64,000 nt of DNA from an uncultured Fodinibius sp. (GCA_913056235.1 CAJXMW010000004.1:334364-398363); one strand, 5' to 3'. Positions 5,697 through 32,100 are shown, counted from the first letter of the stretch. The notes: generated from the sequence alone by a model not told the origin. Numbers and translations: made by a program.

Positions 5697-5942
5697 TCAT
5701 CCTGTGACCAACGTTTCTTTTTCTTCTTTTGAGAATTGTTTGATCTCATGTTCACGCTTACACGCTTCGGAGCGGTCAGGGTGTTCTTCGATAAATACTA
5801 CTGACTGTGGTTCGTGGGCTTGTAAGTATCTAGCGCCATTACCTTGTTTATGTTGATGCCAACGGCGGATCAGATGATTTGTACTGCCTGTATAAAGACT
5901 TTGGTCCTTACAACGGATAATATATACAAACCATTGTTTCAT
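5697..5942 (-). CDS. Stand-alone GIY-YIG nuclease (UPF0213-like)
   Basis: 'WFVYIIRCKDQSLYTGSTNHLIRRWHQH' and 'RSEACKREHEIK'; start taken at ATG 5942. Confidence 0.85.
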   Translation of the reverse strand: MKQWFVYIIRCKDQSLYTGSTNHLIRRWHQHKQGNGARYLQAHEPQSVVFIEEHPDRSEACKREHEIKQFSKEEKETLVTG

Positions 5943-6009
5943 AAATGAGAGAGTGGCCGACGAATGATTAAATAAAGCTTGCAATTTACTTAATTACCAA
6001 TCAACACAA

Positions 6010-6040
6010 AAACCCTGCAAGTCAACGACTTACAGGGTTT
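6010..6040 (-). terminator. Inverted repeat, probable native tRNA-Val terminator displaced by the integrated element
   Basis: AAACCCTGCAAGTC-aac-GACTTACAGGGTTT (one mismatch) lies immediately beyond the duplicated tRNA 3' end. Confidence 0.65.
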
Positions 6041-6042
6041 TA

Positions 6043-6056
6043 AGTGGGTGCTACTG
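6043..6056. repeat. att core, left copy (AGTGGGTGCTACTG)
   Basis: Identical 14-mer at 14751-14764, which overlaps the 3' end of tRNA-Val. Confidence 0.85.
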
Positions 6057-6170
6057 AACTTAAATAGTACATCAGCATTCCCCACTATTCCTGTTAATAT
6101 CCCGTCTATTCTATTTAAACAAACTTTTTGAACTGAGCTTCACAAGACATAAGTAGCATAAAACAATAAA

Positions 6171-6212
6171 TGTTTGTACCTTTTAGGGTATTGGTACAAA
6201 CAAGTACAAACA
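6171..6212. promoter_or_regulatory. Putative integrase arm-type sites, left
   Basis: TGTTTGTACC (6171-6180), inverted GGTACAAACA (6193-6202) and AGTACAAACA (6203-6212); the same motif recurs near the right att. Confidence 0.55.
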
Positions 6213-6222
6213 ACATCTACTT

Positions 6223-7536
6223 ATGGGATTAACTATTGGACTTACTCAGTTGAAACGTAAAAAGCGTAAAGACGGTACAATTCCTGTTTACGTTCGATTC
6301 ACTGAAGATAGAAAATCACGTTACAAAAGTACAGGTATTGCGATAAAAAAGAAGTATTGGTTAGGCAAAAAAGATGCGTGGGTTTCATCTTCACATGATC
6401 GAAGTGAGCAATTGAATAGAAAGCTAAAAAATCAACTTACTGAAATATACAAAGTTGAGGAACAGCTTTATAAAAATGAACAGCTTAGCCTGGATCGTAT
6501 TATTAGTACCCTTTCAGATGATAAAGATCCGCGCTCCATTCTACACAAGGCTGAGGAGTATAAACAGCACCTGAAAGAAGATGATCGGTATTGGGAGCAG
6601 CGCCACTTTACAGTAGTGATTAACAACCTGGATTCATTCATTGATGATAGAGGGAAATCAGATCAGTTAGATCAACTTAATTCTGAATGGATTGAACATT
6701 GGCAGCAATGGTTACTTAAAGAAGTTGGTAACGGGAATAATACCGTTCGTAAAAAGCTGCAACGCTTAAAAGGAATGACTGACTGGCTATATGATAGTGG
6801 AGATATAAAAACCAATCCGTTCGAGCGCGTGGATCGTGTTGAATCAAAGAAAACTAATAATAAGGTCAAGCTATCCTTTGACCAGATAAAAGCTATTGAA
6901 AGTTTGAGTTTAGAACGTGGCTCGGATCTATGGCACACTCGGAATTATTTTATGTATTCATTTTATAATGCCGGTATCCGGTTTGGTGATCTTTGTTGCT
7001 TAAAATGGGAAAATCTCATTGATGGGCGGTTGGTTTATCAGATGAATAAGACTGAGCAACAAAAAAGCATCAACCAACTGCAACCGATGTACCGGCTATT
7101 AATTCACTATGTCAGCAACGTTGGTGAGTATGTATCCTTTTCTAAATGGCAGCCCAACCTACAGCGACCAGTTGACCCTGTAGATAGCTGTTTGAAATAT
7201 ATTGTTATTGCTTATTCAAAAGACCATAACAGTGATTACATCCTTCCCATATTGGAGCAGCATCATTCCGACCCCCAAGAGCTACGTAAGCGAATAAGTA
7301 GTAAAAATGTGATCGTAAACAGGCACTTAAAAACAATTGCCGGTAAGGCTTCGATTCAGGCTAATATCTCATTCCATGTTAGTAGACATTCCTTTGCACA
7401 CTATGCACTTAAAAAGGGAATGGATTTATATGCTATCAGTAAAGCATTAGGTCATTCAGATTTGAAGGTTACAGAGGAATATATAAAGACCTTTGATGAA
7501 GAGATGCTGGATCAATCAATGAATCAATTATTCTAA
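6223..7536 (+). CDS. int: Tyrosine recombinase/integrase (Arm-DNA-binding + SAM-like + catalytic domains)
   Basis: N-terminal 'RKDGTIPVYVRFTEDRKSRYKSTGI'. Catalytic R (GIRFGDL), HxxR (HVSRHSFA), LGHS and Y (TEEY) are all intact. Confidence 0.95.
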   Translation: MGLTIGLTQLKRKKRKDGTIPVYVRFTEDRKSRYKSTGIAIKKKYWLGKKDAWVSSSHDRSEQLNRKLKNQLTEIYKVEEQLYKNEQLSLDRIISTLSDDKDPRSILHKAEEYKQHLKEDDRYWEQRHFTVVINNLDSFIDDRGKSDQLDQLNSEWIEHWQQWLLKEVGNGNNTVRKKLQRLKGMTDWLYDSGDIKTNPFERVDRVESKKTNNKVKLSFDQIKAIESLSLERGSDLWHTRNYFMYSFYNAGIRFGDLCCLKWENLIDGRLVYQMNKTEQQKSINQLQPMYRLLIHYVSNVGEYVSFSKWQPNLQRPVDPVDSCLKYIVIAYSKDHNSDYILPILEQHHSDPQELRKRISSKNVIVNRHLKTIAGKASIQANISFHVSRHSFAHYALKKGMDLYAISKALGHSDLKVTEEYIKTFDEEMLDQSMNQLF

Positions 7537-7549
7537 AACAGATATAACA

Positions 7550-8065
7550 ATGAGTATTTTTTCAGATGCCTTAAAATCATATCAAGATAATCGGTTTCAA
7601 GCCAATCAGAAGAAAGCTGAACAGTTAGATAATCTTTTAGAACGAATTTTGTTTTGGAAGAAATGCCTGAAAGAGGCTAAGCAAAAACAAGGGTTTAATA
7701 AAAAGTATCGTAATCAAATTAAAGCAGAAATAGCGTATTTAGAAGAGAAGATGGAGCTATCGAAAAGAGAGACTCAGAAATCTAAAAATGATAGTGATAA
7801 TTCAACAAAAGAGAATGAATCAAAATCCTATCCTTTAATAGATGAGTTTGTTACTCTTTTTTGTGAAGATACTAAATATTCAAAAAATGCTGTTAGAACT
7901 TACTTGATTGAATGGCAGAAAAGAGAAAATATTTCAAGTCAAAGAGCAAAGAGCAAAAAAGCAGCTATAGAAAAGTGTCCGAAGTTAAAAAATCCAGCTG
8001 AAGGAACATTCATAAATTGGGAAGAAAAATGGACTGAATTTCGTAAGAGTCGCACAGGAAAATAA
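7550..8065 (+). CDS. Hypothetical protein of the element (possible regulator)
   Basis: 171-aa ORF directly after int; N-terminal coiled-coil character and a basic C-terminus. No family recognised. Confidence 0.6.
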   Translation: MSIFSDALKSYQDNRFQANQKKAEQLDNLLERILFWKKCLKEAKQKQGFNKKYRNQIKAEIAYLEEKMELSKRETQKSKNDSDNSTKENESKSYPLIDEFVTLFCEDTKYSKNAVRTYLIEWQKRENISSQRAKSKKAAIEKCPKLKNPAEGTFINWEEKWTEFRKSRTGK

Positions 8066-8069
8066 CTAA

Positions 8070-8167
8070 TCAACCTATTTTCAACGAATTTTCAACAAAC
8101 TTTCAACGCTCTTTTAATAGACCCTTGTAGCCTCCTACCTTAAACTGCTTACAGAGAAAATTTCAAC
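8070..8167 (+). promoter_or_regulatory. Phased (T)TTCAAC direct repeats upstream of the xis-like gene
   Basis: TCAAC at 8070, 8081, 8092 and 8103 (11-bp period), plus TTTCAAC at 8161. Confidence 0.55.
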
Positions 8168-8182
8168 TAAATCTGTAAGCAA

Positions 8183-8485
8183 ATGCCTACTACTTATTTC
8201 CCTTCAAAAACCGAGTTCGAAGAAACGATCGAGGAAAAATTTCAGCAAGTCGTTTCAGAAAAATTACCGTCCTTAGTACGCGCTGCAACGGAAAAAAAGT
8301 ACTTAACCATTTCCGAGGTTTGCGACCTTTTAGATTGTAGCCGGCGACATCTTCAATATCTTCGAGATTCAGGTCAAATTGGCTACGTTAAAAACGGCCG
8401 AAAAGTGTATTTCAGGCGTGAAGATCTGGAAGAGTTTTTCACCGAAAACTATGTACCGGCTAAAGATGAAGGGGTGAAAAAATGA
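8183..8485 (+). CDS. Excisionase-like helix-turn-helix protein (HTH_17 type)
   Basis: 'YLTISEVCDLLDCSRRHLQYLRDSGQIGYVKNGRKVYFRREDLEEF'. Confidence 0.85.
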   Translation: MPTTYFPSKTEFEETIEEKFQQVVSEKLPSLVRAATEKKYLTISEVCDLLDCSRRHLQYLRDSGQIGYVKNGRKVYFRREDLEEFFTENYVPAKDEGVKK

Positions 8486-8700
8486 AACAGCCCGATTTTA
8501 CCCGGGCTGCTGAATCTCTGTATTCGTTTGACAAGAACGACTGTATAGAGAATGTAAGCAAGCCCACCGACTTTAGCAATTTATCCGGCCGCCCGTCGCT
8601 TATTCCGGGAGTGGAATATCCACTTTCAGAAAAGGAAGAGCAGCTTTTAGATAAAGCATGGCAACATTTCTGCAATATGAAATTACGGGGGGTATTATGA
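8482..8700 (+). CDS. Small hypothetical protein
   Basis: 72-aa ORF with ATGA overlaps to both neighbours (8482-8485 and 8697-8700), consistent with translational coupling. Confidence 0.6.
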   Translation: MKQPDFTRAAESLYSFDKNDCIENVSKPTDFSNLSGRPSLIPGVEYPLSEKEEQLLDKAWQHFCNMKLRGVL

Positions 8701-9902
8701 AGCATCACATTCCAGAAGAAGAAGATTTTAGCAATATACCGTTAATTGGTGAAGAGCACCACCAAACAAATGGTACGGCCTCAAAGTCAAATAAAACTAA
8801 AAAGGATGATAGCAGCGATTCTGAGGCGTTCCAACCGGTTGAACCGTACCAACACCCCGTTGATGGATCAGAGGTTGCTCAGGATATCAAAGACACCCTA
8901 ACTAAGTACTTGGTATTGCCTGAAGATGCCGACACTGCAATCACATTGTGGGTATTGTTTTCATATACCTTTGATGACTTCGATGTTTGCCCTATTCTGG
9001 CTATCACTTCACCTGAAAAACGATGTGGAAAAACGTCGCTGCTGGCCTTGCTCACAGCACTATGTCAAAAGGTGCTGGCAGGTTCCAATATTACACCGGC
9101 CGCAACCTTTCGAGCGATTGAGAAGTGGCAACCGACATTATTAGTTGATGAAGCCGATACCTTTCTGAATCAAAAAGAGGAACTGCGAGGGATTCTAAAT
9201 TCAGGCCATACCCGGCCAACGGCTTTTGTAACCAGAGCTGTTTCACAAGGTAAAAAGTTTGATGTAAAAAGATTCAGTACATGGACACCAAAGGCCATTG
9301 CTCTTATTGGTAAACTTACCGATACCCTGGAGGATAGATCAATCCGGGTAAAGATGCGTCGCAAAAAGAAAAATGAGTTCCGGGAACGGATACGATATTC
9401 ACAATTGAATAGTGAGTTGGAAGAACTCAGAAAAAAGATTGCAAAATGGGCAACGGAATTTGAACCAACATATCAATTTGAAGTTCCTGAGAAGTTGGAT
9501 GATAGAGCTGCTGACAATTGGTTACCGTTGCTATCCATTGCCGATGATGTAGGATGGACTGAGCAAGCCATAGAAGCCGCTGAGAATCTATCCGGAACGC
9601 CTGACACTCAGACATATCAAACGATGCTTTTAGAGGATATTCAGAAAATATTTTCAGGTGAGTGGAGGCAAAAAGATCATCCAACGGATAAAGTATTTAC
9701 TACTGATTTACTTGAAAAACTAAATGGGAAACCAGACAAACCGTGGTGCGAATTTAGTAATGGGCAAAACATGACAGCACGGAAATTGAGTGTCATGTTG
9801 AAGCCATTTGAGATTAGCTCAGACAATGTATCAATCAACGGTACGAGATTAAAAGGATTCACAAAAAATGACTTTGAAGATGCTTTCGACCGCTATTTAT
9901 AG
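8697..9902 (+). CDS. DUF3631-domain replication protein (P-loop, helicase-like)
   Basis: 'AITLWVLFSY', 'ILAITSPEKRCGKTSLL', 'PTLLVDEAD', 'LRGILNSGH' and 'LDDRAADNWLPLLSIAD'; start at coupled ATG 8697. Confidence 0.8.
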   Translation: MKHHIPEEEDFSNIPLIGEEHHQTNGTASKSNKTKKDDSSDSEAFQPVEPYQHPVDGSEVAQDIKDTLTKYLVLPEDADTAITLWVLFSYTFDDFDVCPILAITSPEKRCGKTSLLALLTALCQKVLAGSNITPAATFRAIEKWQPTLLVDEADTFLNQKEELRGILNSGHTRPTAFVTRAVSQGKKFDVKRFSTWTPKAIALIGKLTDTLEDRSIRVKMRRKKKNEFRERIRYSQLNSELEELRKKIAKWATEFEPTYQFEVPEKLDDRAADNWLPLLSIADDVGWTEQAIEAAENLSGTPDTQTYQTMLLEDIQKIFSGEWRQKDHPTDKVFTTDLLEKLNGKPDKPWCEFSNGQNMTARKLSVMLKPFEISSDNVSINGTRLKGFTKNDFEDAFDRYL

Positions 9903-10090
9903 CACACCCCCTATGTTAAAGCGTACACCCGTACGAATCGACGCTTACAGGCTACAGATGCCGTTTTTAGGGCTTTTAACCCGTACGGTTATTCACTCAG
10001 GGTGTACGGATGAGAACGACCAAAAATGCCGTTTACAGGCTATAAAGCCTGAAATGTACGGGTGTACGGATCAGTTTAGGGGGGTAGGGA
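9903..10090. other. Putative replication origin of the element
   Basis: Inverted 12-mers GTACACCCGTAC (9923-9934) / GTACGGGTGTAC (10056-10067), direct GGGTGTACGGAT (10000-10011, 10060-10071) and ACCCGTACGG (9979-9988), located between the two replication genes. Confidence 0.55.
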
Positions 10091-10099
10091 GGTTTTGCC

Positions 10100-11293
10100 A
10101 TGTTTGATGATAATATTTCCATATTCCGAACCTTCGATTCAGACCCTAAGGCTATCACTTTGGGACGTTGGATTCGTTCTACATTGAACGGGAATAATAC
10201 GTTCGCTAAGCAGGTGCTGAAATATCGAAACACCGGAGACGATAGTCTTAAAAAATCCCTTCCATTAGCGACCGTTGGTGCGTTATGTGAGGATGGCCGA
10301 AAGTTGGAAAATGTGAAAGAGCGCACGGGATGGATAGCCCTTGATATTGATGCCAAAGACAATCCCGAGGTTGAAGATTCAGCAGAGTTGCGGGACAATA
10401 TATCAAAGATTGTTTACGTGGCTTTTGCGGGATTATCAGTTTCAGGCAACGGCGTTTGGGCTTTGGTGAAGGTTGAAGATCCACAGAAGCAAGAGCAATA
10501 TTTCAAACAACTGCAACATGACTTTAAGCACTTTGGTATTGTCCTGGATTCTACAAAAGGTAAAAATCCCAATGATGCACGGTTCTACTCTTATGATCCG
10601 GACGCTGTTATCAGTGAAGATTTTAAGATATATGATCGGTTGCCTAAGAATAAGACTAAGCGCACCGGGAAACCTACCAGGCGAATCAATGCTAACTACT
10701 CATTAAATGATACCCGTGATAAAGTTGAGACTCTTATATCCAAAATTCAGGATCAACGGATAGATATAACTGAAGGTTATGAAAATTGGCGGGATTTGGG
10801 ATTTGCTTTTGAGGATGAATTTGGAGAGCAAGGCCGCGACTATTTTCATGCGATAAGTGAAATGTATCCAGGCTATGATCCCAAAGAATGTGATAGACAG
10901 TTCATAAAATGCGTACGACACCGAGGGAGTGGAATCAGTATAGGCACGTTCTTTTATGAATGTAGAAAGCATGGCATAACACTTGGAAATGATTTGAACG
11001 GCTCTAATGGCGAATATGAAGCCGATAAAAATACCGATTCTGAAAATTCTGCTACTTATGGGATAAATCCCTATACAGGCGAAGTTTTTGACGAACGCGG
11101 TTATCCGGTTGCATGGGATGACATTACACTGGATGAAGATTCACAGGAATATCACGAAGCGACTAAACAAGCTATTAACGATGCTGCACCTGATGAATTA
11201 GAGCAGCTATGCAGACGAGATCCCACAGTTAAGAAATTGATTAATCTTTTTGATGGAGAAGTGAAAACAGCAAGCGATATAATCTTAAACTAA
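10100..11293 (+). CDS. Primase-like protein: BT4734/VirE N-terminal domain + PriCT-2 domain
   Basis: 'LKKSLPLATVG', 'WIALDID', 'SVSGNGVWALV', 'RFYSYDPDA' (BT4734-type); 'YENWRDLGFA...GRDYFHAISEMYPGYDPKECD' (PriCT-2). Confidence 0.85.
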   Translation: MFDDNISIFRTFDSDPKAITLGRWIRSTLNGNNTFAKQVLKYRNTGDDSLKKSLPLATVGALCEDGRKLENVKERTGWIALDIDAKDNPEVEDSAELRDNISKIVYVAFAGLSVSGNGVWALVKVEDPQKQEQYFKQLQHDFKHFGIVLDSTKGKNPNDARFYSYDPDAVISEDFKIYDRLPKNKTKRTGKPTRRINANYSLNDTRDKVETLISKIQDQRIDITEGYENWRDLGFAFEDEFGEQGRDYFHAISEMYPGYDPKECDRQFIKCVRHRGSGISIGTFFYECRKHGITLGNDLNGSNGEYEADKNTDSENSATYGINPYTGEVFDERGYPVAWDDITLDEDSQEYHEATKQAINDAAPDELEQLCRRDPTVKKLINLFDGEVKTASDIILN

Positions 11294-11304
11294 CTACCAA
11301 CACT

Positions 11305-11532
11305 ATGAGTAAACAAAACTATAAAGAAATTGCCCGGGAGATCCTGGACAACAGAGACTTTGAACCGATCCACATAAATATTGCTCCTAAGCACCGCGAA
11401 CGACTCGAAGCAGTAGCCAACGCAATGGACTTGACCGTTCCCGAATGCTGCACATTCATGCTTTATTCCTTCATTAATGATATGGAATTGGCTGCTAAAC
11501 AAGCTGAAATGCAAAATCTTAATCCGAATTAA
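11305..11532 (+). CDS. Small hypothetical protein (possible ribbon-helix-helix DNA binder)
   Basis: 75 aa; 'PIHINIAPKHRERLEAVANAMDLTVPE' has a beta-helix-helix pattern. Confidence 0.5.
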   Translation: MSKQNYKEIAREILDNRDFEPIHINIAPKHRERLEAVANAMDLTVPECCTFMLYSFINDMELAAKQAEMQNLNPN

Positions 11533-11550
11533 TGGCGGGTATCCCTACAT

Positions 11551-11650
11551 ACTACGGGGGTATGGGCGGCATAGCAAATCACCTCCTCGACCCTATAATG
11601 ATAATCGTCCATCCCCGTATTATTCTTTCTTTAAGAAAACCCGAAACAAA
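11551..11650 (+). other. cos-like packaging site
   Basis: GGGGGTATGGGCGGCATAGCAAATC...CCCC...TTTCTTT..AAAACCCGAAA immediately upstream of TerS resembles the cos region layout of HK97-like cos phages. This is pattern recall, not a verified site. Confidence 0.45.
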
Positions 11651-11661
11651 AAAAATAGCTT

Positions 11662-11943
11662 ATGGATCTTTCAGATGAAGCCCAGAAATGGCACGATAAA
11701 ATAAAAAAAGAATACGGCATTCGAGATGAACCTGGATTGCTTTTGCTACAAACGGCGTTTGAAGCGTTCGACGAAATGAGAAAGGCGCAAAAAGAGATGA
11801 ACGGAACCCCTGTTTATACCGACCGTTTCGACCAGCCGAAGCCGCACCCGGCCGCAAAAGAGGCAAGGGCAGCACGTTCCCAGATGTTGAAAGCCTTGAA
11901 AGCTCTTAATTTAGAAATTGATCCTCCTAAAATTGAAAACTGA
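11662..11943 (+). CDS. terS: Phage terminase small subunit, P27 family
   Basis: 'LLLLQTAFEAFDEMRKAQKE...VYTDRFDQPKPHPAAKEARAARSQMLKALKALNL' is the characteristic P27/Terminase_4 pattern. Confidence 0.8.
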   Translation: MDLSDEAQKWHDKIKKEYGIRDEPGLLLLQTAFEAFDEMRKAQKEMNGTPVYTDRFDQPKPHPAAKEARAARSQMLKALKALNLEIDPPKIEN

Positions 11944-11951
11944 TACTGATT

Positions 11952-12254
11952 ATGCGTAAACGAAAACGAAGATCAACCGACCCGAAGGATGAACTTATTG
12001 AGTATGGTAAAAAATGGTTCAATGCTGCATGGGATGGCAATATTGATAAAGCTCTGAAAGCCCGGAAAGATGCTGAAGATGTTTTCAGTGAGCACCCGGA
12101 GTACCTGGAAGAGCCGCCCTACTGCAAAAAGATGTTATACATACATTGGCAGTGGTTTGTCAACTATTTGAAACCAGCAGTAAGAAACCGACTCAATGAA
12201 TTACTACACGAGGGCAAAATGCCGAATGCGTTTGCAGATCCTGATGACTTTTAA
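11952..12254 (+). CDS. Hypothetical protein
   Basis: 100-aa ORF between TerS and the capsid gene with a basic N-terminus (MRKRKRR); no family recognised. Confidence 0.6.
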   Translation: MRKRKRRSTDPKDELIEYGKKWFNAAWDGNIDKALKARKDAEDVFSEHPEYLEEPPYCKKMLYIHWQWFVNYLKPAVRNRLNELLHEGKMPNAFADPDDF

Positions 12255-12277
12255 CGATAACCAACGGGGGAAATATT

Positions 12278-12502
12278 ATGCCGGAAGTAACGAAATTACA
12301 ACTAAGATTAGTAGATCCTGAAACCTTTTTAGATGAATTTTATAAAGCAAAACACGAAACCGGCCTATCGGATAGAAAGGTTTTCGATGTGCTTAATAAA
12401 ATATTCCGAAAGACGTACGGAATCGACAGGTATTCGAGTTATGACTCTTTCCGAGTGGCACGAAATAGACGTATAAATAAAAAATGTAACAATGTTTCAT
12501 AA
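12278..12502 (+). CDS. Hypothetical protein (possible late-gene regulator)
   Basis: 74 aa with RBS-like GGGGA upstream; C-terminal 'RYSSYDSFRVARNR'. Confidence 0.55.
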   Translation: MPEVTKLQLRLVDPETFLDEFYKAKHETGLSDRKVFDVLNKIFRKTYGIDRYSSYDSFRVARNRRINKKCNNVS

Positions 12503-12579
12503 ATGGCCTATGCGCTTCATAAAGGGCATTTTATGGGGTATCTTTAAGTAGTACAAATTTAAACGAAACGCCCGTTATT

Positions 12580-13833
12580 ATGGACAAAGAAAACATAAAC
12601 AGACTATTAAATATCGACCCCAGCAACTTCGATTTTTCGAATATGAAGCTGGCCATTGAAACCCGAGATGAGTTTTTGCAAGCCATTGATAAACTTTCGA
12701 ATAATGGAGGCAATCCGGATCAAATAAATTCATTAGTTGCGAAAGCTAACCTTTTCGATTCAAAGATTGAAGCCCGTAAGCAAGAGGAGCGAAACGGGAT
12801 GCGTGCTGCGGATAACGGTTCGAGCAAATCGTATAGTTTGAAAGGTGGCAAACCGCTGAATGAAGCGGGAAGTATCCGGCTTTACCAGCCTAACCAACGT
12901 ATTGCAAACGATTTTAACAAGCCGCAAGGAACTGGCCGGGACGTGGATTTAGGTTCTTATTTAAGAGCCGTTGTTGACAAGCCCCGCAATGCAGCCGAAC
13001 GGGAGGTAGTTCAAAATTCAGTAACTTCAGGAGATTATGAATTGCCGACTCACATTGCTGCAGAACTCGTGGACAAATTGAGAGCACAGAATCCATTACT
13101 AATGAATAATGGCGCTGGCTCTCGTGTTGTAACCTTAGAAGGCGGAGATACGAAGTTTATAACTATTGACTCGGATATGTCGGCCACCTTCCATGCTGAA
13201 ATGGTAGAAGAGACCCCAGATGACCCTGCATTCGGCTCTAAAACGTTGGCGCCCAGTACATTACTGGCTATGACGGAAATCTCAAACGAGACCCTCCAGG
13301 ATTCTGCAAACATTGAAGAAGCGTTGACAACTTCGTTTGTCGGTGCGATTAATGATGCCATGTTGGATGCAACATTTGCAGCCACAACATCAAATGGACC
13401 GGACGGATTGGGAACTTATGTTACGCAAACGGAAGAGTATTCCAACGGTGGCAACCCAGATTGGAGCCATTTTGTAAACGCAAATAAGACCCTTTTTGAC
13501 AACAATCTTTCAGAGGACGGACGTTCTCATATTTTAGCCCCGGATGTATGGTCAGATTTAACCCTTGCCAAGGACTCGAATGGTAGATACCAGGATGCAC
13601 CCAGTGGAATACGAGATATTCCCAATTTTACAACATCTGGCGTTCCTACCGGTGAAGCGTATGCCGGGGATTTTGAAAACGTAATTTATGGGATGCGTCT
13701 TGAAATTAACATTCGACGGTATCCTTCAGCAGCGGCAAAGAGTTACGGGACGTTATTCGTTGCAGCAATGAGATACGATTTAGCCGTATTCCGACCGAAC
13801 GCACTTGTTCGAATTGAAGAAGCTACGGCTTAA
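12580..13833 (+). CDS. Major capsid protein, HK97 fold, with N-terminal delta/scaffold-like segment
   Basis: 'GDYELPTHIAAELVDKLRAQNPLL', 'AMTEISNETLQDS', 'LAKDSNGRY', 'AYAGDFENV' and 'MRYDLAVFRPNALVRI' follow the HK97-family MCP pattern; the first ~100 aa are helical. Confidence 0.9.
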   Translation: MDKENINRLLNIDPSNFDFSNMKLAIETRDEFLQAIDKLSNNGGNPDQINSLVAKANLFDSKIEARKQEERNGMRAADNGSSKSYSLKGGKPLNEAGSIRLYQPNQRIANDFNKPQGTGRDVDLGSYLRAVVDKPRNAAEREVVQNSVTSGDYELPTHIAAELVDKLRAQNPLLMNNGAGSRVVTLEGGDTKFITIDSDMSATFHAEMVEETPDDPAFGSKTLAPSTLLAMTEISNETLQDSANIEEALTTSFVGAINDAMLDATFAATTSNGPDGLGTYVTQTEEYSNGGNPDWSHFVNANKTLFDNNLSEDGRSHILAPDVWSDLTLAKDSNGRYQDAPSGIRDIPNFTTSGVPTGEAYAGDFENVIYGMRLEINIRRYPSAAAKSYGTLFVAAMRYDLAVFRPNALVRIEEATA

Positions 13834-13910
13834 TAATTCCCCCGTGCGCACCTTTGACGTGGCGTTTGCGCTTGATTCATCATCTGCGTGTTTATCCATG
13901 GTGCGCTTGC

Positions 13911-13958
13911 ATGCCCCACCGGTTTACTTTCAAGTTTACGGTGGGGCATTTTATTTTT
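13911..13958 (+). terminator. Rho-independent terminator after the capsid gene
   Basis: Perfect 11-bp stem ATGCCCCACCG / CGGTGGGGCAT followed by TTTATTTTT. Confidence 0.75.
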
Positions 13959-13975
13959 AGCCTTGACTAACAATT

Positions 13976-14116
13976 ATGAAAACGCAAAGAGTAGAACGCA
14001 GGATCTTATTTCTGGAAGAGCGTATCCAACGAGCACGGAAAGCCGGGAAAGATACCAGCGAACTAAGGAAACAGCGGAAACAGGCTATTCAGTATTTGAA
14101 CCGCCTGAACGAGTAA
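13976..14116 (+). CDS. Small basic coiled-coil protein, 46 aa (not in ORF track)
   Basis: MKTQRVERRILFLEERIQRARKAGKDTSELRKQRKQAIQYLNRLNE, translated by hand; A/T-rich leader like the other element genes. Confidence 0.5.
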   Translation: MKTQRVERRILFLEERIQRARKAGKDTSELRKQRKQAIQYLNRLNE

Positions 14117-14240
14117 TAGTAAACCCCTTTAATTTTTTTTTAGGCTCTTAGAATCCAATTATGAAAGCCGTTTAAAGCTAACTGATAGGGATTTTTAGAA
14201 ATAGCCTTCACAGTAATATGTGAGGGTTTTATGATGCCAA

Positions 14241-14510
14241 TTACAGAAAAAATTGCAGATAAACTGATATTGCAACTAATATTACATTTAATAAAGTCAT
14301 GACCGCTATACACCAAGTCATAATTTTAATATTCTTGCTGACTTGATAACTTTTGGCTAAAATTTTCAAATTAATTGCCCGTTGTGGATCTTTTTCAGTG
14401 TTAACCGGAAATTTTCTCAATTCTTTAGATAAGGTCGGTAATGAAATTTTGTCTTGAAGAACTTTCTTAAACAGCTCCTTGAGTTTCTTATCATATCTGT
14501 CGTATGACAT
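14241..14510 (-). CDS. Small protein with C-terminal transmembrane helix (accessory cargo)
   Basis: 89 aa with hydrophobic tail 'IMTWCIAVMTLLNVILVAISVYLQFFL'; the only antisense gene in the element; AT-rich. Confidence 0.65.
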   Translation of the reverse strand: MSYDRYDKKLKELFKKVLQDKISLPTLSKELRKFPVNTEKDPQRAINLKILAKSYQVSKNIKIMTWCIAVMTLLNVILVAISVYLQFFL

Positions 14511-14685
14511 AACAATAGATTTTATTTAAAATAGAAACCTAATATTAGTAAGACTGACAAGAGAGACAATCCTTACAATTTGTTAGCACAATGTTAAAAG
14601 ACTCTTGTCTTAATTGGCAGGGGCTTTTTTATGGAATAGCACTTCTTTTCTAAATTAATATAAAAAAGGCAGTTATAACCTTATA

Positions 14686-14707
14686 TGTTTGTACCCTTAT
14701 TTGTACC
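14686..14707. promoter_or_regulatory. Putative integrase arm-type sites, right
   Basis: TGTTTGTACC (14686-14695) and TTTGTACC (14700-14707), matching the left-end motif. Confidence 0.55.
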
Positions 14708-14750
14708 ATAAAAGATAAGTGTATGGCACACAAGGATTTACAGTAATGAG

Positions 14751-14764
14751 AGTGGGTGCTACTG
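14751..14764. repeat. att core, right copy (AGTGGGTGCTACTG)
   Basis: Identical to 6043-6056; overlaps the tRNA acceptor and T stems. Confidence 0.85.
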
Positions 14765-14827
14765 GATTCGAACCAGTGACCTCTACCGTGTCGGGGTAGC
14801 GCTCTAAACCAACTGAGCTAAGCACCC
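14753..14827 (-). tRNA. tRNA-Val(GAC); CCA not encoded
   Basis: Minus-strand sequence GGGTGCT TA GCTC AGTTGGTTTA GAGC G CTACC CCGACAC GGTAG AGGTC ACTGG TTCGAAT CCAGT AGCACCC A folds as a full cloverleaf with anticodon GAC. Confidence 0.95.
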
Positions 14828-29118: not shown

Positions 29119-32100
29119 ATGCCCACAGACACACAAGTTCACTACAATAAACAATACCTGGAAGAGGAGATACGCCAGCTTGCCACCATCCAACAGGCTA
29201 CGCTTGATAGTAAGCCTTTACAGCCTATCAGTCCTATTATTGCGGATGCCAAAGATACATTAGTTGAAGCCTATCGTGTGTTGGCCCGTGCGGCCAAACA
29301 AAACAGAGAGCTGAGTTCGGCCGGGGAATGGTTGATTGACAACTTTTACATCATCCAGGAGCAGATGGTACAGCTTAACGCGGACCTGCCCGAATCGTAC
29401 TATCGAAAGCTTCCGCGGCTGGTTCAGGGAGAGTATCGTGGATATCCCCGTACCTTTGAGATTGTTCAGATGCTGGCGACAATCAGCGACAATACGATCG
29501 ACCAGGATAATACGACTATAGCTGTCCGGGCTTACCAAGAGATTGACACGCTTAGTTTAGCTGAGATGTGGTCAGTGCCACTAATGAATCGTCTGGCTCT
29601 GATTGTGAGGCTGGCAGAACGAGCCAAAAAGCTGCTCAGAGACCGCCGAATGCAAGATGAAATTGAAAAGATCTTACACGAAAAGATTGACGAAGAGGCA
29701 GATGAACCCGGTTATTTGCTGCGTAAGCTTTCTGAAATTGTTGGCCAACAAAACGATACTCAACGGTTTCTGGTGATATTAGCCCAACAGCTTCAAAAAA
29801 GGGGGATGCTCACTGAAAACGAGCGCCGCTGGTTCGATTATAAGTTCTCTCGTTGGGAGACAAACCTTGAAGAACAGCTTCGAGGCCGTACGCAACAAAC
29901 TTCTCGGCTCCACCTCAGCATTCAGAATGCGATCTCATCGCTGCGCGTGGTTTCAGAGACCGACTGGGCTGATTTTGTAGAAAGTTGTTCGGTGGTAGAA
30001 CGTATCCTGCGCCTGGACCCGGCGGACATGTATCACCAGATGGATTTTAGCACGCGCGACACTTATCGCAAAAAGGTTGAGAAGCTAAGTGCACATTCGA
30101 ATTTTAGCGAGCAGAAAGTAGCCGAGCAGGCGCTGCTTATGGCCGAAAGTGCTGCTCAGAATGGTGCCACCAGTAAAGGCAAAAAAGTGCATATTGGGTA
30201 CTATCTGGTCGGGGATGGATATGAAGGGCTTATCGACAAACTTAAATATAACAGGCCGTTCGACGAGTGGGTGCTGAAGAAAGGCGAAGAACAGCCAGCT
30301 ATCTACTTTTCCATTATCGGATTGCACCTGGTGATATTACTCGGAATTGTGGGACTCTTCACCAATTTTTTAATGCAAGAATGGTGGATGATTACACTGA
30401 CCCTGCTGATTACAGTTCTTCCGGCGCTTGATTTATCGATCGTGTCAACCAATCGGCTACTCTCCTTTTTTGTGTCGCCCCGGATACTACCTAAACTCGA
30501 ATTTAAGGACGAAATTCCGCATAAATATCGAACTGTAGTGATTGTTCCGACGATGCTTTCTTCCCCCCGTGATGTTGCTGATCAGTTCGAGGCACTTGAA
30601 ATCAGGGCCCTGGCCAATACGAACCCGTCGCTGCAGTTCGCTTTGTTGGCAGACTTCCATGATGCCCCGCATGAAAGTATGCAAGACGACAGCGCTATCC
30701 TGGAAGAAGCCCAACAGCAAGTTAACCGATTAAACTTGCAGTACAAGAGTAAGTATGGAGATAAATTCCTGTTCTTCCATCGAAAACGTCGCTGGAACGA
30801 AGAGGAAGACACGTGGATGGGGTGGGAGCGCAAACGGGGTAAGTTGGAAGAGTTTAATCACCTGCTAAAAAATCCCGATGCCGATACCACATATAGCATC
30901 GTAAATGATAATTTCTTGCAGACGCTTACGAAGTTTCCCCTGCAGTTTGTAATTACTCTTGATGCAGACACCAAACTGCCGCCGGGTAGTGCCCGCATGC
31001 TGATAGGTACGGCCGCCCATCCGTTAAACAGGGCAGAGGTCGATAAGGAGGGTAATATTGTTGAAAGAGGTTACGGTATTTTTCAACCCCGTATTTCTAT
31101 AGCACCGAAATCGGCGAATCGGACGTGGTTTGCGCGCATTTTTTCGGGTAATGTGGGGTTGGATCCCTATACCACGGCCGTTTCCGATATTTATCAGGAT
31201 TTGTTTGGAGAGGGCATTTTTACAGGCAAGGGATTGTATGACCTTGCTGTTTTTGAACAGGTTCTGGGTGATAAGTTTCCCGAAAATGCTATTCTCTCAC
31301 ACGATTTGCTCGAAAGTACCTATCTACGGGCGGCCTTGGTCACTGATATTGAGCTCTTTGATGCCTATCCCCGCAATTACCTGAGCTTTGCCAAACGCAA
31401 TCACCGTTGGATACGTGGGGATTGGCAAATTTTGTACTGGCTGTTTACGAAAGTACCTGCAAGAGGCCAAAGTAGTGAGTCAAATCCCATCAGTGGTATT
31501 TCAAAGTGGAAAATATTTGACAATATGCGTCGCTCGCTCAACCCGGTAGCGCTGATTATATTCTTGCTTGCCGGCTGGGTACTGCTTCCGGGATCAGCAT
31601 TCGTATGGACGGCAGCAGTATTCGGGATTCTGGCCTTTCCCATTTATTCAAGTTTTTCAACTGATATTTTTAGGCGTCCCGAACGCGTTAATTGGAAACT
31701 GTATATCGAGAAAATAAGGGCTGATCTGAAGACCAATACACTGCAGGCCGTAACAAGTTTCTTGTTTTTGCCTCACCAGGCTGCAATTTCGCTTGATGCA
31801 ATAATTCGGACATTGTATCGGATGTTTATATCGCAAAAAAAAATGTTGGAGTGGACCACGGCGAACCAAGCTGAACGCCTGCATTCAAACGGCACATTTC
31901 TGAGCTATTGGCTTAACATGTGGTTTAATATCTTTTGGGGTATTGTAAGCCTTATATTGGTCAGTATTTATCATTCAACAATATTGATCATTGCGATCCC
32001 GGTTTGCTTGGGTTGGATATTAGCTCCCGGAATAGCCTTTTATCTGACCCGTACGCCGGAGGTATTTGAGCATCGGGAGTTGCCAGAAGGGGATGTCAGG

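What the first reader, a model, noticed from the sequence alone, without database searches (positions are those of the whole stretch)
6043..14764. Complete 8.7 kb phage satellite integrated at tRNA-Val in a Balneolota-like host
Seen in the sequence: 14-bp att repeats, an intact tyrosine integrase, a xis-like HTH, DUF3631 and primase genes flanking ori-like repeats, TerS, an HK97 capsid gene and one antisense cargo gene. No frameshifts or stops were seen in the core genes. Established: PICIs, cf-PICIs and tycheposons are small int-rep-packaging elements that parasitise helper phages; I am not aware of a characterised example from this lineage. Inference: an active satellite, possibly of an undescribed family, that depends on an HK97-like cos helper phage.
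Basis: partly seen in the sequence, partly recalled or inferred. Interest (0 to 1): 0.85.

Follow-up and report, generated by a model that had tools for sequence, protein, structure and literature searches.

The report
Small capsid-gene phage satellite at tRNA-Val
An 8.7 kb mobile island sits in a tRNA-Val gene of a Fodinibius (Balneolota) bacterium. It carries only an integrase, a replication module, a small terminase and one phage capsid gene, so it most likely spreads by hijacking a still-unknown helper phage, and it belongs to an uncharacterised family of same-sized islands.

Summary
An 8,708-bp insertion is bounded by an exact 14-bp repeat, the right copy being the 3' end of tRNA-Val(GAC). 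Near-identical strains in other metagenomes carry the exact empty site. Others carry a different 16.7 kb element between the same repeats. So the island is a discrete, recently mobile unit.

Its genes are intact: tyrosine integrase, an unknown 171-aa gene, an AlpA-like HTH_17 protein, DUF3631, an iteron cluster, a primase, then a packaging block. That block holds a 75-aa protein, a short P27-family small terminase, 100-aa and 74-aa unknowns, an HK97-fold capsid protein with a helical N-terminal domain, and a 46-aa protein. No portal, large terminase, protease, tail or lysis gene was found.

Every relative of the capsid gene whose surroundings could be read lies in an island of the same layout. 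Nine of them, bounded by att repeats, measure 8.2-9.2 kb and sit at five different tRNA genes; none is a full prophage. Integrase and replication modules are swapped between relatives while the packaging genes stay under purifying selection. One relative was assembled in circularly permuted (excised) form.

The best reading is a PICI-like satellite whose own capsid protein builds or resizes small heads. The helper phage, induction and cos packaging remain unshown. I rate it a new variant of a known kind.

The parts
6009..6041 (-). Host hairpin terminator of tRNA-Val. It lies outside the element and was displaced 8.7 kb from the tRNA by the insertion.
   Evidence: 15-pair stem followed by a T run. 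In the empty sites L099, L101 and L103 it directly follows the tRNA.
6043..6056 (.). attL core, AGTGGGTGCTACTG
   Evidence: Exact 14-bp direct repeat. Empty sites keep a single copy.
6173..6210 (.). Candidate arm-type integrase sites (TTTGTAC / GTACAAA, three copies) upstream of int
   Evidence: Matching copies lie next to attR. The 16.7 kb element at the same site and relatives L163 and L164 have analogous repeats at both ends. The function is inferred.
6223..7536 (+). Tyrosine integrase, 437 aa
   Evidence: Arm-DNA-bind_5, Phage_int_SAM_5 and Phage_integrase domains; PHROG 1. It is 71% identical to the integrase of L110, which also targets tRNA-Val, and 57% identical to the integrase of the 16.7 kb element at the same site.
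7550..8065 (+). 171-aa protein of unknown function in a hypervariable slot between int and the HTH gene
   Evidence: No Pfam, PHROG or PADLOC hit. Every relative has a gene at this position, but the genes are not homologous to each other.
8079..8167 (.). Four TTTCAAC boxes, three of them in 11-bp tandem, upstream of the HTH gene: a candidate operator
   Evidence: 4 of the 9 plus-strand copies in the 64 kb window fall within 83 bp. The function is inferred.
8183..8485 (+). HTH_17 protein of the AlpA / excisionase type, 100 aa
   Evidence: PF12728, E 1.1e-15; excisionase PHROGs. The counterparts in L094 and L108 also hit PF05930 Phage_AlpA.
8482..8700 (+). 72-aa ORF of unknown function
   Evidence: It has one homologue, in L110.
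8658..9902 (+). DUF3631 protein, 414 aa, part of the replication module
   Evidence: PF12307, E 1.6e-38. Relatives carry DUF3987, VapE or AAA_25 proteins here instead.
9928..10071 (.). Iteron-like repeat cluster, a candidate origin of replication
   Evidence: GTACGR five times in 134 bp, the densest cluster in the window. CGYTTACAGGCTA occurs twice and GGGTGTACGGAT twice.
10100..11293 (+). Primase, 397 aa
   Evidence: BT4734-like_N and PriCT_2 domains; DNA-primase PHROGs. Its last 67 aa are shared at 73% with the otherwise unrelated replication protein of L081.
11305..11532 (+). 75-aa conserved protein, the first gene of the packaging block. It reads like a ribbon-helix-helix protein.
   Evidence: Homologues in L081, L093, L086 and L110. 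dN/dS is 0.10 against L081. The fold assignment is my own reading of the sequence, not a tool result.
11662..11943 (+). Short P27-family small terminase (TerS), 93 aa
   Evidence: PF05119, E 8.8e-4 alone. 26 of 30 homologues match PF05119, best E 5.8e-22. dN/dS is 0.017 against L081. The AF2 model (pLDDT 83) has no PDB neighbour.
11952..12254 (+). 100-aa conserved protein with a basic N-terminus, function unknown
   Evidence: Homologues always follow TerS in the Balneolaceae relatives. No Pfam, PDB or PADLOC hit.
12278..12502 (+). 74-aa conserved protein always placed just upstream of the capsid gene, function unknown
   Evidence: Alignment A6. In L097 and L108 this domain is fused behind a TerS-like N-terminal half, which is my reading of A6. 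No PDB hit.
12580..13833 (+). HK97-fold major capsid protein, 417 aa, with a helical N-terminal (delta-like) domain
   Evidence: PF05065. AF2 model pLDDT 77: helices at 22-72, a disordered stretch at 74-87, then a fold whose top matches are HK97 prohead and RcGTA capsid. A discrete clade of about 11 clusters at 50% identity.
13976..14116 (+). 46-aa conserved ORF
   Evidence: 98% identical in L081 and 91% in L085.
14120..14200 (.). Conserved non-coding box with an invariant CTTAGAAT, a candidate cis site (packaging signal or promoter)
   Evidence: Conserved in five elements whose neighbouring cargo differs. The function is inferred.
14241..14510 (-). Antisense 89-aa cargo ORF with a hydrophobic C-terminus, in the variable region
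   Evidence: no PADLOC hit. Near-identical elements L083 and L084 diverge to the right of 14129.
14602..14623 (+). Terminator-like hairpin at the right end
14688..14706 (.). Two TTTGTAC arm-type boxes next to attR
   Evidence: The right arm is 81.5% identical to that of L110.
14751..14764 (.). attR core, AGTGGGTGCTACTG
14752..14827 (-). tRNA-Val(GAC), the integration target; its 3' end is rebuilt by the element's core copy
   Evidence: ARAGORN; Rfam tRNA, 68.6 bits.

Best explanation
This is an integrative phage satellite of the PICI type.

Shown: it is an 8,708-bp unit that a tyrosine integrase inserted into the 3' end of tRNA-Val. It is present, absent or replaced by another element among otherwise identical strains.

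Inferred life cycle: a helper phage triggers the AlpA-like HTH_17 protein and the rightward operon. The integrase, with that HTH protein acting as excisionase, cuts the island out as a circle. The DUF3631 protein and the primase replicate it from the iteron cluster that lies between their genes. The short P27-type TerS, probably together with the three conserved small proteins, directs the helper's large terminase to satellite DNA.

The satellite's own HK97-fold capsid protein carries its own scaffold-like N-terminal domain. It either builds the shell on the helper's portal or co-assembles with the helper's capsid protein, as Ccm of SaPIbov5 does. The result would be small heads that fit about 8-9 kb and exclude the helper genome. 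Portal, large terminase, protease, head completion, tail and lysis functions must all come from the helper.
For: Mobility. The empty attB is exact in L099, L101 and L103 and in runs X2 and X3. One sample holds both the occupied and the empty allele. A second element, 16,730 bp long with a 57%-identical integrase, lies between the same core repeats.

Gene set. It is restricted to integration, regulation, replication, TerS and the capsid protein. The capsid protein has the HK97 fold and a delta-like N-terminus.

Family.
- All contexts of the capsid clade and of the closest TerS relatives share the layout. None has a TerL-sized or portal-sized gene.
- The nine bounded relatives span 8,283-9,195 bp. 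Their targets are tRNA-Val, tRNA-Asn, tRNA-Leu(TAA) and tRNA-Leu(CAG); L172, whose left end was not recovered, lies at tRNA-Leu(GAG). The geometry is the same in all.
- Integrase and replication modules are swapped, while the packaging block is 95.8% identical in nucleotides between the window and L081.
- Purifying selection acts on the packaging genes: TerS dN/dS 0.017 and the 75-aa gene 0.10. Capsid synonymous sites are saturated while pN is about 0.2.
- L095 is a circular permutation of the integrated L094 element, joined through a single 66-bp att.

Precedent. Ccm of SaPIbov5 is a capsid-protein homologue with a cleaved delta domain. It makes small capsids, and SaPIbov5 has no protease of its own (PMC8569155). 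EcCICFT073 and PmCI172 also carry capsid homologues (PMC6092414).
Against: - No helper phage was identified. There is none in the 64 kb window. No GenBank phage has a capsid protein more than 27% identical. IMG/VR holds no close relative.
- No circle or virion-packaged form of this exact element was seen. In run X1 its depth equals that of the flanks (23x), so it was not induced there.
- TerS is short and has no structural match.
- Three conserved small proteins are of unknown function.
- 8.7 kb is small even for a T=4 head, so packaging of multimers into full-size heads is equally possible.
Confidence: 0.75

Rival explanations
1. It is a satellite, but it is packaged as head-to-tail multimers into full-size helper heads, as VEIMEs and PICMIs are. 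The capsid gene would then serve only to interfere with helper assembly, as a dominant-negative or defence function, and would not build satellite-sized heads.
For: VEIME monomers range from under 5 kb to 16.8 kb and travel as 8-17 copies per virion (PMC9618062). Four or five copies of 8.7 kb would fill a typical 35-45 kb head. No size-determining scaffold was recognised.
Against: VEIMEs carry no capsid genes (PMC9618062). Here the capsid gene is the most constant feature of the family and keeps a complete scaffold-like domain. The unit length is tightly conserved at 8.2-9.2 kb despite module swaps. That fits a monomer-capacity limit better than free multimer packaging.
Confidence: 0.15
2. It is a decayed prophage remnant that kept the integrase, replication genes and one head gene by chance.
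For: All its recognisable genes are of phage type. The sister element at the same site carries a tape-measure-like gene.
Against: More than ten independent elements share the same gene order, and the nine bounded ones fall in one narrow size range, with different integrases, tRNA targets and replication modules. The packaging genes are under strong purifying selection. The att sites are intact and empty sites exist. One relative occurs as an excised circle. No full-length prophage has a related capsid protein or TerS.
Confidence: 0.04
3. It is an integrative mobilisable element moved by conjugation or vesicles, and the capsid and TerS genes are anti-phage cargo.
For: DUF3631, VirE-like primases and HTH_17 proteins are common in integrative elements of Bacteroidota; that statement rests on my own knowledge. 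The primase matches a defence-associated PADLOC model at the domain level only.
Against: No relaxase, oriT or coupling protein was found. The capsid and TerS genes, not the replication genes, are the invariant core of the family.
Confidence: 0.04
4. It is a self-sufficient particle maker, encapsulin-like or a minimal tailless virus, that needs no helper.
For: It encodes a complete HK97-fold shell protein with its own scaffold-like domain.
Against: It has no portal, large terminase, lysis or exit function. It matches Pfam Phage_capsid, not an encapsulin family. A TerS has no known role without a TerL.
Confidence: 0.02

Closest known systems
Gram-negative-type PICIs (EcCICFT073, PmCI172; Fillol-Salom et al. 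2018, PMC6092414)
   Same: Site-specific integrase. Unidirectional rightward transcription starting at int. An AlpA-type HTH protein. A pri/rep module with iterons. A capsid-protein homologue in some members. Accessory genes at the far end. No tail or lysis genes.
   Different: The host phylum is different (Balneolota). The integrase is of Bacteroidota type (Arm-DNA-bind_5). The replication genes are DUF3631 plus a BT4734/PriCT_2 primase. The island is 8.7 kb rather than the 10-20 kbp quoted for PICIs (10.1101/2020.12.28.424599). It carries both a P27-type TerS and a capsid gene, plus three conserved small proteins with no known counterpart. Induction and interference were not tested.
SaPIbov5 and its Ccm protein (Hawkins et al. 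2021, PMC8569155)
   Same: [quoted passage not shown]
   Different: SaPIbov5 has no TerS and carries the helper's cos site. Ccm is recognisably related to its helper's capsid protein, whereas here no phage capsid protein above 27% identity is known. Some relatives of this island add their own ClpP-type or S78 prohead protease.
Capsid-forming PICIs (cf-PICI, EcCIEDL933; 10.1101/2022.09.08.507074)
   Same: The satellite encodes its own capsid protein, which is distant from all phage capsid proteins, together with a TerS.
   Different: cf-PICIs (the prototype is 15.4 kb) also encode a protease, a portal, head-tail connectors, an HNH protein and TerL. None of these is present here.
PICI-like tycheposons (Hackl et al., 10.1101/2020.12.28.424599)
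   Same: tRNA-targeting tyrosine recombinase, excisionase and primase, with a single phage packaging gene class (terS or MCP). Integration and replication modules are exchanged between elements.
   Different: Tycheposons are defined by their own recombinase clade and hallmark genes in Prochlorococcus and other marine bacteria. They are reported to carry either terS or MCP, whereas this island has both. Membership was not testable here.
VEIMEs and PICMIs (PMC9618062; PMC10803314, the latter cited through PMC11389934)
   Same: Very small marine or saline satellites with an integrase, an AlpA-like protein or excisionase, and replication genes.
   Different: They encode no capsid gene and travel as concatemers in full-size helper heads.
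P4-like satellites
   Same: A small tRNA-integrated satellite with a primase. Some relatives (L094, L108, L153) use P4-type integrases.
   Different: P4's Sid, Psu, Delta and alpha-type primase-helicase are features I take from my own knowledge. None of them was found. P4 resizes heads with an external scaffold, not with a capsid homologue.

Membership tests
PICI, Gram-negative type (features listed in PMC6092414, section 6) | Site-specific integrase with defined att sites | tested here: met
   Integrase domains; 14-bp att core; exact empty sites.
PICI, Gram-negative type | Unidirectional rightward transcription from int, with an AlpA-type activator | tested here: inconclusive
   Thirteen of fourteen ORFs are co-oriented with int. 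An HTH_17 protein follows int, and relatives hit PF05930 Phage_AlpA. Activator function was not tested.
PICI, Gram-negative type | Own pri/rep module with an iteron origin next to the replication gene | tested here: met
   DUF3631 protein and primase. The iteron cluster at 9928-10071 lies between them. Origin function was not tested.
PICI, Gram-negative type | Attachment site never used by temperate prophages | tested here: inconclusive
   The same site holds a 16.7 kb element with a tape-measure-like gene but no head or terminase genes. No complete prophage was seen there.
PICI, Gram-negative type | Induction by, packaging by, and interference with a helper phage | not testable with these tools
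   No helper was identified. Only assembled contigs were available for the runs.
cf-PICI | Own major capsid protein and TerS | tested here: met
cf-PICI | Own prohead protease, portal, head-tail connectors, HNH and TerL | tested here: not met
   No such Pfam or PHROG hit in any ORF. The largest unassigned ORF is 171 aa.
SaPIbov5 / Ccm type | Lone capsid-protein homologue with a delta domain and no satellite protease | tested here: met
   AF2 model: N-terminal helices at 22-72, a disordered stretch at 74-87, then the HK97 fold. No protease was found.
SaPIbov5 / Ccm type | Carries the helper's cos site, and its capsid homologue is related to the helper's capsid protein | not testable with these tools
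   The helper is unknown. The best phage capsid match is 27% identical.
P4-like | Sid, Psu, Delta and an alpha-type primase-helicase (features taken from my own knowledge) | tested here: not met
   No matching Pfam or PHROG family.
VEIME / PICMI | No capsid structural gene; packaged as concatemers | tested here: not met
   A capsid gene is present. The packaging form could not be tested.
Tycheposon (PICI-like subtype) | Tycheposon-clade tyrosine recombinase and hallmark gene set | not tested
   No tycheposon profiles were available. tRNA targeting and a terS/MCP payload are shared.

The most novel reading that the evidence does not exclude
The island would be one member of a cross-phylum, so far unnamed class of minimal capsid-encoding satellites. 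These are 8-10 kb tRNA-integrated islands with integrase, an AlpA-like protein, a replication module, a short P27 TerS and an HK97 capsid protein, with or without a protease. They would assemble a small shell entirely from their own capsid protein on a stolen portal. That would place them between Ccm-type capsid redirection and the full capsid formation of cf-PICIs. The tight unit length would reflect the capacity of that shell.

Support: homologues of the short TerS sit within about 2 kb of a capsid gene in roughly 20 loci. In about 30 loci they lie 2-7 kb downstream of an integrase. Thirteen islands could be bounded, at 8.2-10.4 kb, eleven of them ending at a tRNA gene. These loci come from Gammaproteobacteria, Planctomycetes, Desulfobacterota and other phyla.
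Probability: 0.35. Interest if true: 0.8.

Novelty: new variant of a known kind. Interest (0 to 1): 0.62.

Why it matters
I know of no characterised phage satellite from Balneolota, and none turned up in my literature searches. This island gives a clean natural example with three allelic states at one tRNA: empty, occupied by the satellite, and occupied by a different element.

The family is also a minimal design. A capsid protein and a small terminase are the only virion-related genes, and genome length is tightly conserved. It could show how little a satellite needs in order to take over head assembly, and how capsid-forming satellites evolve from, or into, capsid-redirecting ones.

Similar TerS-plus-capsid islands appear in many phyla. 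Current satellite detectors, which are built on P4, PICI, cf-PICI and PLE models, may therefore miss a common class. A cultured carrier, Fodinibius roseus DSM 21986, makes the question experimentally testable.

Tried and rejected
- Empty site in GTDB species representatives. None was clean. In L002 and L003 the tRNA-Val gene is inverted relative to nusB, and L005 has 5.5 kb of other genes there. The empty site was found instead through exact-protein look-ups of flanking genes. A first look-up with a guessed GalT start failed.
- Helper phage search. No GenBank phage has a capsid protein above 27% identity. IMG/VR has no close capsid relative. The closest TerS relatives on long contigs, P0189 and P0193, turned out to be satellites too. 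Only L123-L125 look like real phages, and their capsid proteins are distant. The rest of the window holds ordinary chromosomal genes.
- Circle junction of this element. Only Logan contigs exist for the seven runs that hold it, and no junction contig was seen.
- Function of the 74-aa, 100-aa and 171-aa proteins and of the cargo ORF. No hit in Pfam, PHROGs, PADLOC or PDB sequences.
- Structural confirmation of TerS. The model is confident but has no significant PDB neighbour, and there is no PDB sequence hit.
- Next tier of capsid relatives. The attempt to find their contexts failed because the alignment was too divergent to seed a scan.
- Metagenome scan with the capsid alignment. It returned only three loci.
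- Non-coding RNA. Rfam found nothing in the island beyond the tRNA.
- The 20-nt inverted repeat flanking the 74-aa and capsid genes (12264 and 13826). It does not bound the 100%-identical recombination block at 12022-14034, so I treat it as chance.

Full report
**1.

The 14-bp sequence AGTGGGTGCTACTG occurs at 6043-6056 and at 14751-14764. ARAGORN and Rfam place tRNA-Val(GAC) at 14752-14827 on the minus strand. The right copy is therefore the tRNA's 3' end. G+C content falls from about 0.47 in the flanks to 0.34-0.44 inside the interval.

The ORFs in the interval are intact. The main assignments come:
- Tyrosine integrase, 6223-7536, with Arm-DNA-bind_5, SAM_5 and Phage_integrase domains.
- HTH_17 protein, 8183-8485.
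- DUF3631 protein, 8658-9902.
- Primase, 10100-11293, with BT4734-like_N and PriCT_2 domains.
- PF05065 capsid protein, 12580-13833.

The putative TerS (11662-11943) scores below Pfam's cut-off on its own (E 8.8e-4). A profile search nevertheless found 58 relatives, many annotated as P27-family small terminase. Of 30 aligned members, 26 match PF05119, with a best E of 5.8e-22.

Three sets of short repeats stand out:
- Between the DUF3631 and primase genes, GTACGR occurs five times in 134 bp, against 24 copies on that strand in the whole 64 kb. Two further two-copy repeats lie in the same stretch.
- Four TTTCAAC boxes lie upstream of the HTH gene.
- TTTGTAC boxes lie just inside both ends, where integrase arm sites would be expected.

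**2. The island is a discrete, recently mobile unit**

The host is a Fodinibius. Its GalT is 89% identical to that of a Fodinibius MAG, and the genus belongs to phylum Balneolota.

Species-level relatives gave no clean empty site. Exact-protein look-ups of the flanking YchF and GIY-YIG genes did find the same strain in several metagenomes, and they showed three states of the locus between those flanks, plus a fourth arrangement:
- Empty (L099, L101, L103). The left flank, the 6009-6041 hairpin, one core copy and the tRNA body are contiguous and match the window base for base.
- Occupied by this element (L102).
- Occupied by a different 16,730-bp element flanked by the same 14-bp core (L104 and L098, merged).
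- A different left flank altogether (L100).

Logan contigs of four runs agree:
- X1 holds the island at the same depth as its flanks (23x).
- X2 and X3 have the empty joint at 253x and 89x.
- X4 has the 16.7 kb element.

Metagenome 3300000927 contains both the empty allele (L103) and a contig 100% identical across the right junction (L082).

The hairpin at 6009-6041 is the tRNA's own terminator. The insertion moved it 8.7 kb away from the tRNA.

**3. The island belongs to a family, and the family looks like a satellite**

The capsid protein has 33 close relatives. Beyond them comes a gap: a profile search of 1.84 billion representative proteins gives about 11 clusters above 345 bits and then nothing above 255 bits. 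No GenBank phage exceeds 27% identity. IMG/VR holds nothing close.

Every context I could read, for the capsid clade and for the nearest TerS relatives, is a small island with the same gene order: integrase, a variable gene, HTH_17/AlpA, a replication gene, several small genes, the capsid gene, then cargo. These contexts are L081, L085, L093, L094, L097 (the same F. roseus element as L087), L108, L110, L163, L164, L172 and L174.

Spacing between att repeats is 8,283-9,195 bp in the nine relatives with clear repeats, against 8,708 bp here. All lie at the 3' end of a minus-strand tRNA gene with the integrase at the far end. The bounded ones target tRNA-Val(GAC), tRNA-Asn, tRNA-Leu(TAA) and tRNA-Leu(CAG). 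L172, whose left end was not recovered, lies at tRNA-Leu(GAG). None contains an ORF large enough, or annotated, to be a TerL or a portal.

Two subtypes exist:
- Capsid gene only, as in this window.
- Capsid gene plus a ClpP-type protease and a Ser/Thr kinase (L097 from the isolate Fodinibius roseus DSM 21986, and L108).

**4. Modularity and selection**

L081 has a packaging block (window 11292-14129) that is 95.8% identical in nucleotides. Its integrase, however, is only 31% identical. Its replication module is different (DUF3987 plus a Zn_ribbon_16/DUF6371 protein), and it sits at tRNA-Asn.

Within the packaging block, 2,013 bp (12022-14034) are 100% identical. TerS, by contrast, shows dS 0.80 with dN/dS 0.017, and the 75-aa gene shows dS 0.91 with dN/dS 0.10. 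Against more distant relatives the capsid gene is saturated at synonymous sites while pN is about 0.2. The genes are therefore functional and exchanged by recombination, not decaying.

The gene between int and the HTH gene is present in every element but is not homologous between them. A helper-specific sensor or an accessory hot spot would behave this way; that is inference.

**5. Excision has been seen in a relative**

L095 is a 7,866-bp contig from one run. It is a circular permutation of the integrated element in L094. The right end runs through a single copy of the 66-bp att into the integrase end. A contig from a sister run (L096) is collinear with the integrated form. I could not map reads on that locus.

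**6. The capsid protein**

The AlphaFold model (pLDDT 77) has long N-terminal helices at 22-72 and a disordered stretch at 74-87. The rest is an HK97 fold whose best PDB matches are HK97 prohead I/II, the RcGTA capsid and siphophage capsids. A cf-PICI capsid and the SaPI1 capsid also appear in the list.

This is the layout of phi12 capsid protein and of SaPIbov5 Ccm. In both, the N-terminal delta domain is cleaved (residues 1-87 in Ccm). Ccm takes the pentamer positions to force small T=4 heads, and SaPIbov5 has no protease of its own (PMC8569155).

The N-terminal ~90 residues are the most variable part of the family. That would fit adaptation to different helpers, which is inference.

**7. 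Mechanism**

Shown: site-specific insertion and loss, the modular family, selection on the packaging genes, and the circular form of a relative.

Inferred: helper-triggered expression through the AlpA-like protein; replication from the iterons by the DUF3631 protein and the primase; redirection of the helper's TerL by TerS and the small proteins; and formation of satellite-sized heads by the satellite's capsid protein on the helper's portal, matured by the helper's protease.

The conserved unit length of 8.2-9.2 kb suggests a capacity limit. By volume scaling from T=7 heads of about 40-48 kb, my own estimate, a T=3 or T=4 shell would hold roughly 9-20 kb. Multimer packaging into full-size heads is the main alternative (PMC9618062).

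A conserved non-coding box with an invariant CTTAGAAT lies just after the packaging block in five elements. It is a candidate cis site.

**8. Comparison with known families**

- Gram-negative-type PICIs are the nearest design. Shared features are unidirectional transcription from int, an AlpA-type protein, pri/rep with iterons, accessory genes and, in EcCICFT073 and PmCI172, a capsid homologue (PMC6092414).
- SaPIbov5 with its Ccm protein is the nearest mechanistic precedent (PMC8569155).
- The island is not a cf-PICI. Protease, portal, connectors, HNH and TerL are all absent (10.1101/2022.09.08.507074).
- It is not a VEIME or a PICMI, which have no capsid gene (PMC9618062).
- It is not P4-like.
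[quoted passage not shown] The concept is shared, but membership rests on a recombinase clade I could not test.

I therefore rate the island a new variant of a known kind. It comes from a new host phylum, uses new gene families, and has a fixed minimal payload of TerS, capsid protein and three conserved unknown proteins.

**9. Wider signal**

The short P27 TerS family is not confined to Balneolaceae. A scan of one genome per species returned 46 loci from many phyla, and IMG/VR returned 11.
- In most of them an integrase on the same strand lies 2-7 kb upstream of TerS, with a large replication-type ORF between.
- Where my profiles detect a capsid gene, it is usually within about 1-2 kb of TerS.
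- Only three IMG/VR contigs show the phage order TerS, TerL, portal, then a capsid gene about 5 kb away.
- Pfam confirmed two examples. L153 (Wenzhouxiangella) reads integrase, VapE, TerS, capsid gene, RIO kinase. L137 (Haliea) reads integrase, S78 protease, capsid gene, TerS.
- Thirteen such islands could be bounded at 8.2-10.4 kb, eleven of them ending at a tRNA gene.

This suggests a broad, unnamed class. I did not test common ancestry.

**10. Limits**

No helper was found, and there is no induction or virion evidence for this element. cos versus pac packaging is unknown. The small proteins have no assigned function, and the TerS model has no structural neighbour. The remainder of the window holds ordinary chromosomal genes.

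Noticed in passing
L104 and L098 merged (JGI 3300000885, contig JGI12445J12830_1000002); the same site as window 6043-14764: In sister strains the same tRNA-Val site holds a 16,730-bp element flanked by the identical 14-bp core. Its integrase is 57% identical to the window's and its HTH_17 protein about 60% identical. It carries a DnaD-like loader, a DnaB helicase, an 1198-aa tape-measure-like protein (PhageMin_Tail) and a Ser/Thr kinase. No capsid, portal or terminase gene was detected. It is either a tail-module-bearing cousin of the satellite or a deleted prophage.
   Followed up: partly
L115-L171, e.g. L153:3064-11300 and L137:2644-10519: Homologues of the short P27 TerS sit in 8.2-10.4 kb tRNA-integrated islands with an integrase, and usually an HK97 capsid gene within about 1-2 kb. 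The hosts include Gammaproteobacteria, Planctomycetes, Desulfobacterota, Acidobacteriota and other phyla. This may be a widespread, unnamed class of satellites.
   Followed up: partly
L097:12403-13083, L108:12334-13032, L172:6513-7175, L153:11374-12237, L098:5643-6179: Protein kinases (Pkinase or RIO) recur as cargo a short way downstream of the capsid gene in several relatives, and one occurs in the 16.7 kb element. They may be anti-phage or host-takeover cargo.
   Followed up: no
window 12022-14034 against L081: A 2,013-bp block covering part of the 100-aa gene, the 74-aa gene, the capsid gene and the start of the 46-aa ORF is 100% identical between two elements. Their adjacent TerS and 75-aa genes have dS of about 0.8-0.9. 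This points to very recent gene conversion between co-occurring satellites.
   Followed up: yes
window 11098-11293 against L081:5664-5856: The last 67 aa or so of the primase are 73% identical to the C-terminus of an otherwise unrelated replication protein (Zn_ribbon_16/DUF6371) in L081 and L093. This is either a shared interaction tail or the recombination joint between the replication and packaging modules.
   Followed up: no
L002:12386-12461 and L003:5999-6074, compared with window 14752-14827: In two related Fodinibius/Balneolaceae genomes the tRNA-Val(GAC) gene lies between the same neighbours but in the opposite orientation relative to nusB. The satellite L110 is inserted accordingly on the nusB side.
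   Followed up: partly
L100:1-8770: A strain with an identical YchF has a quite different left neighbourhood next to nusB (SusC/SusD, GH130, ROK kinase, MFS transporter). The tRNA-Val locus seems to be a rearrangement hot spot.
   Followed up: no
window 29119-37752: A 2,877-aa ORF carries GH94 supersandwich, GH94 catalytic and glucoamylase domains (cyclic beta-1,2-glucan synthase-like). It is an ordinary chromosomal gene, unrelated to the island.
   Followed up: partly
window 5941-6042: A weak, far sub-threshold Rfam hit to the Bacteroides sRNA BTnc005 (24.6 bits against a gathering score of 174.8) overlaps the tRNA terminator hairpin. It is most likely chance.
   Followed up: no
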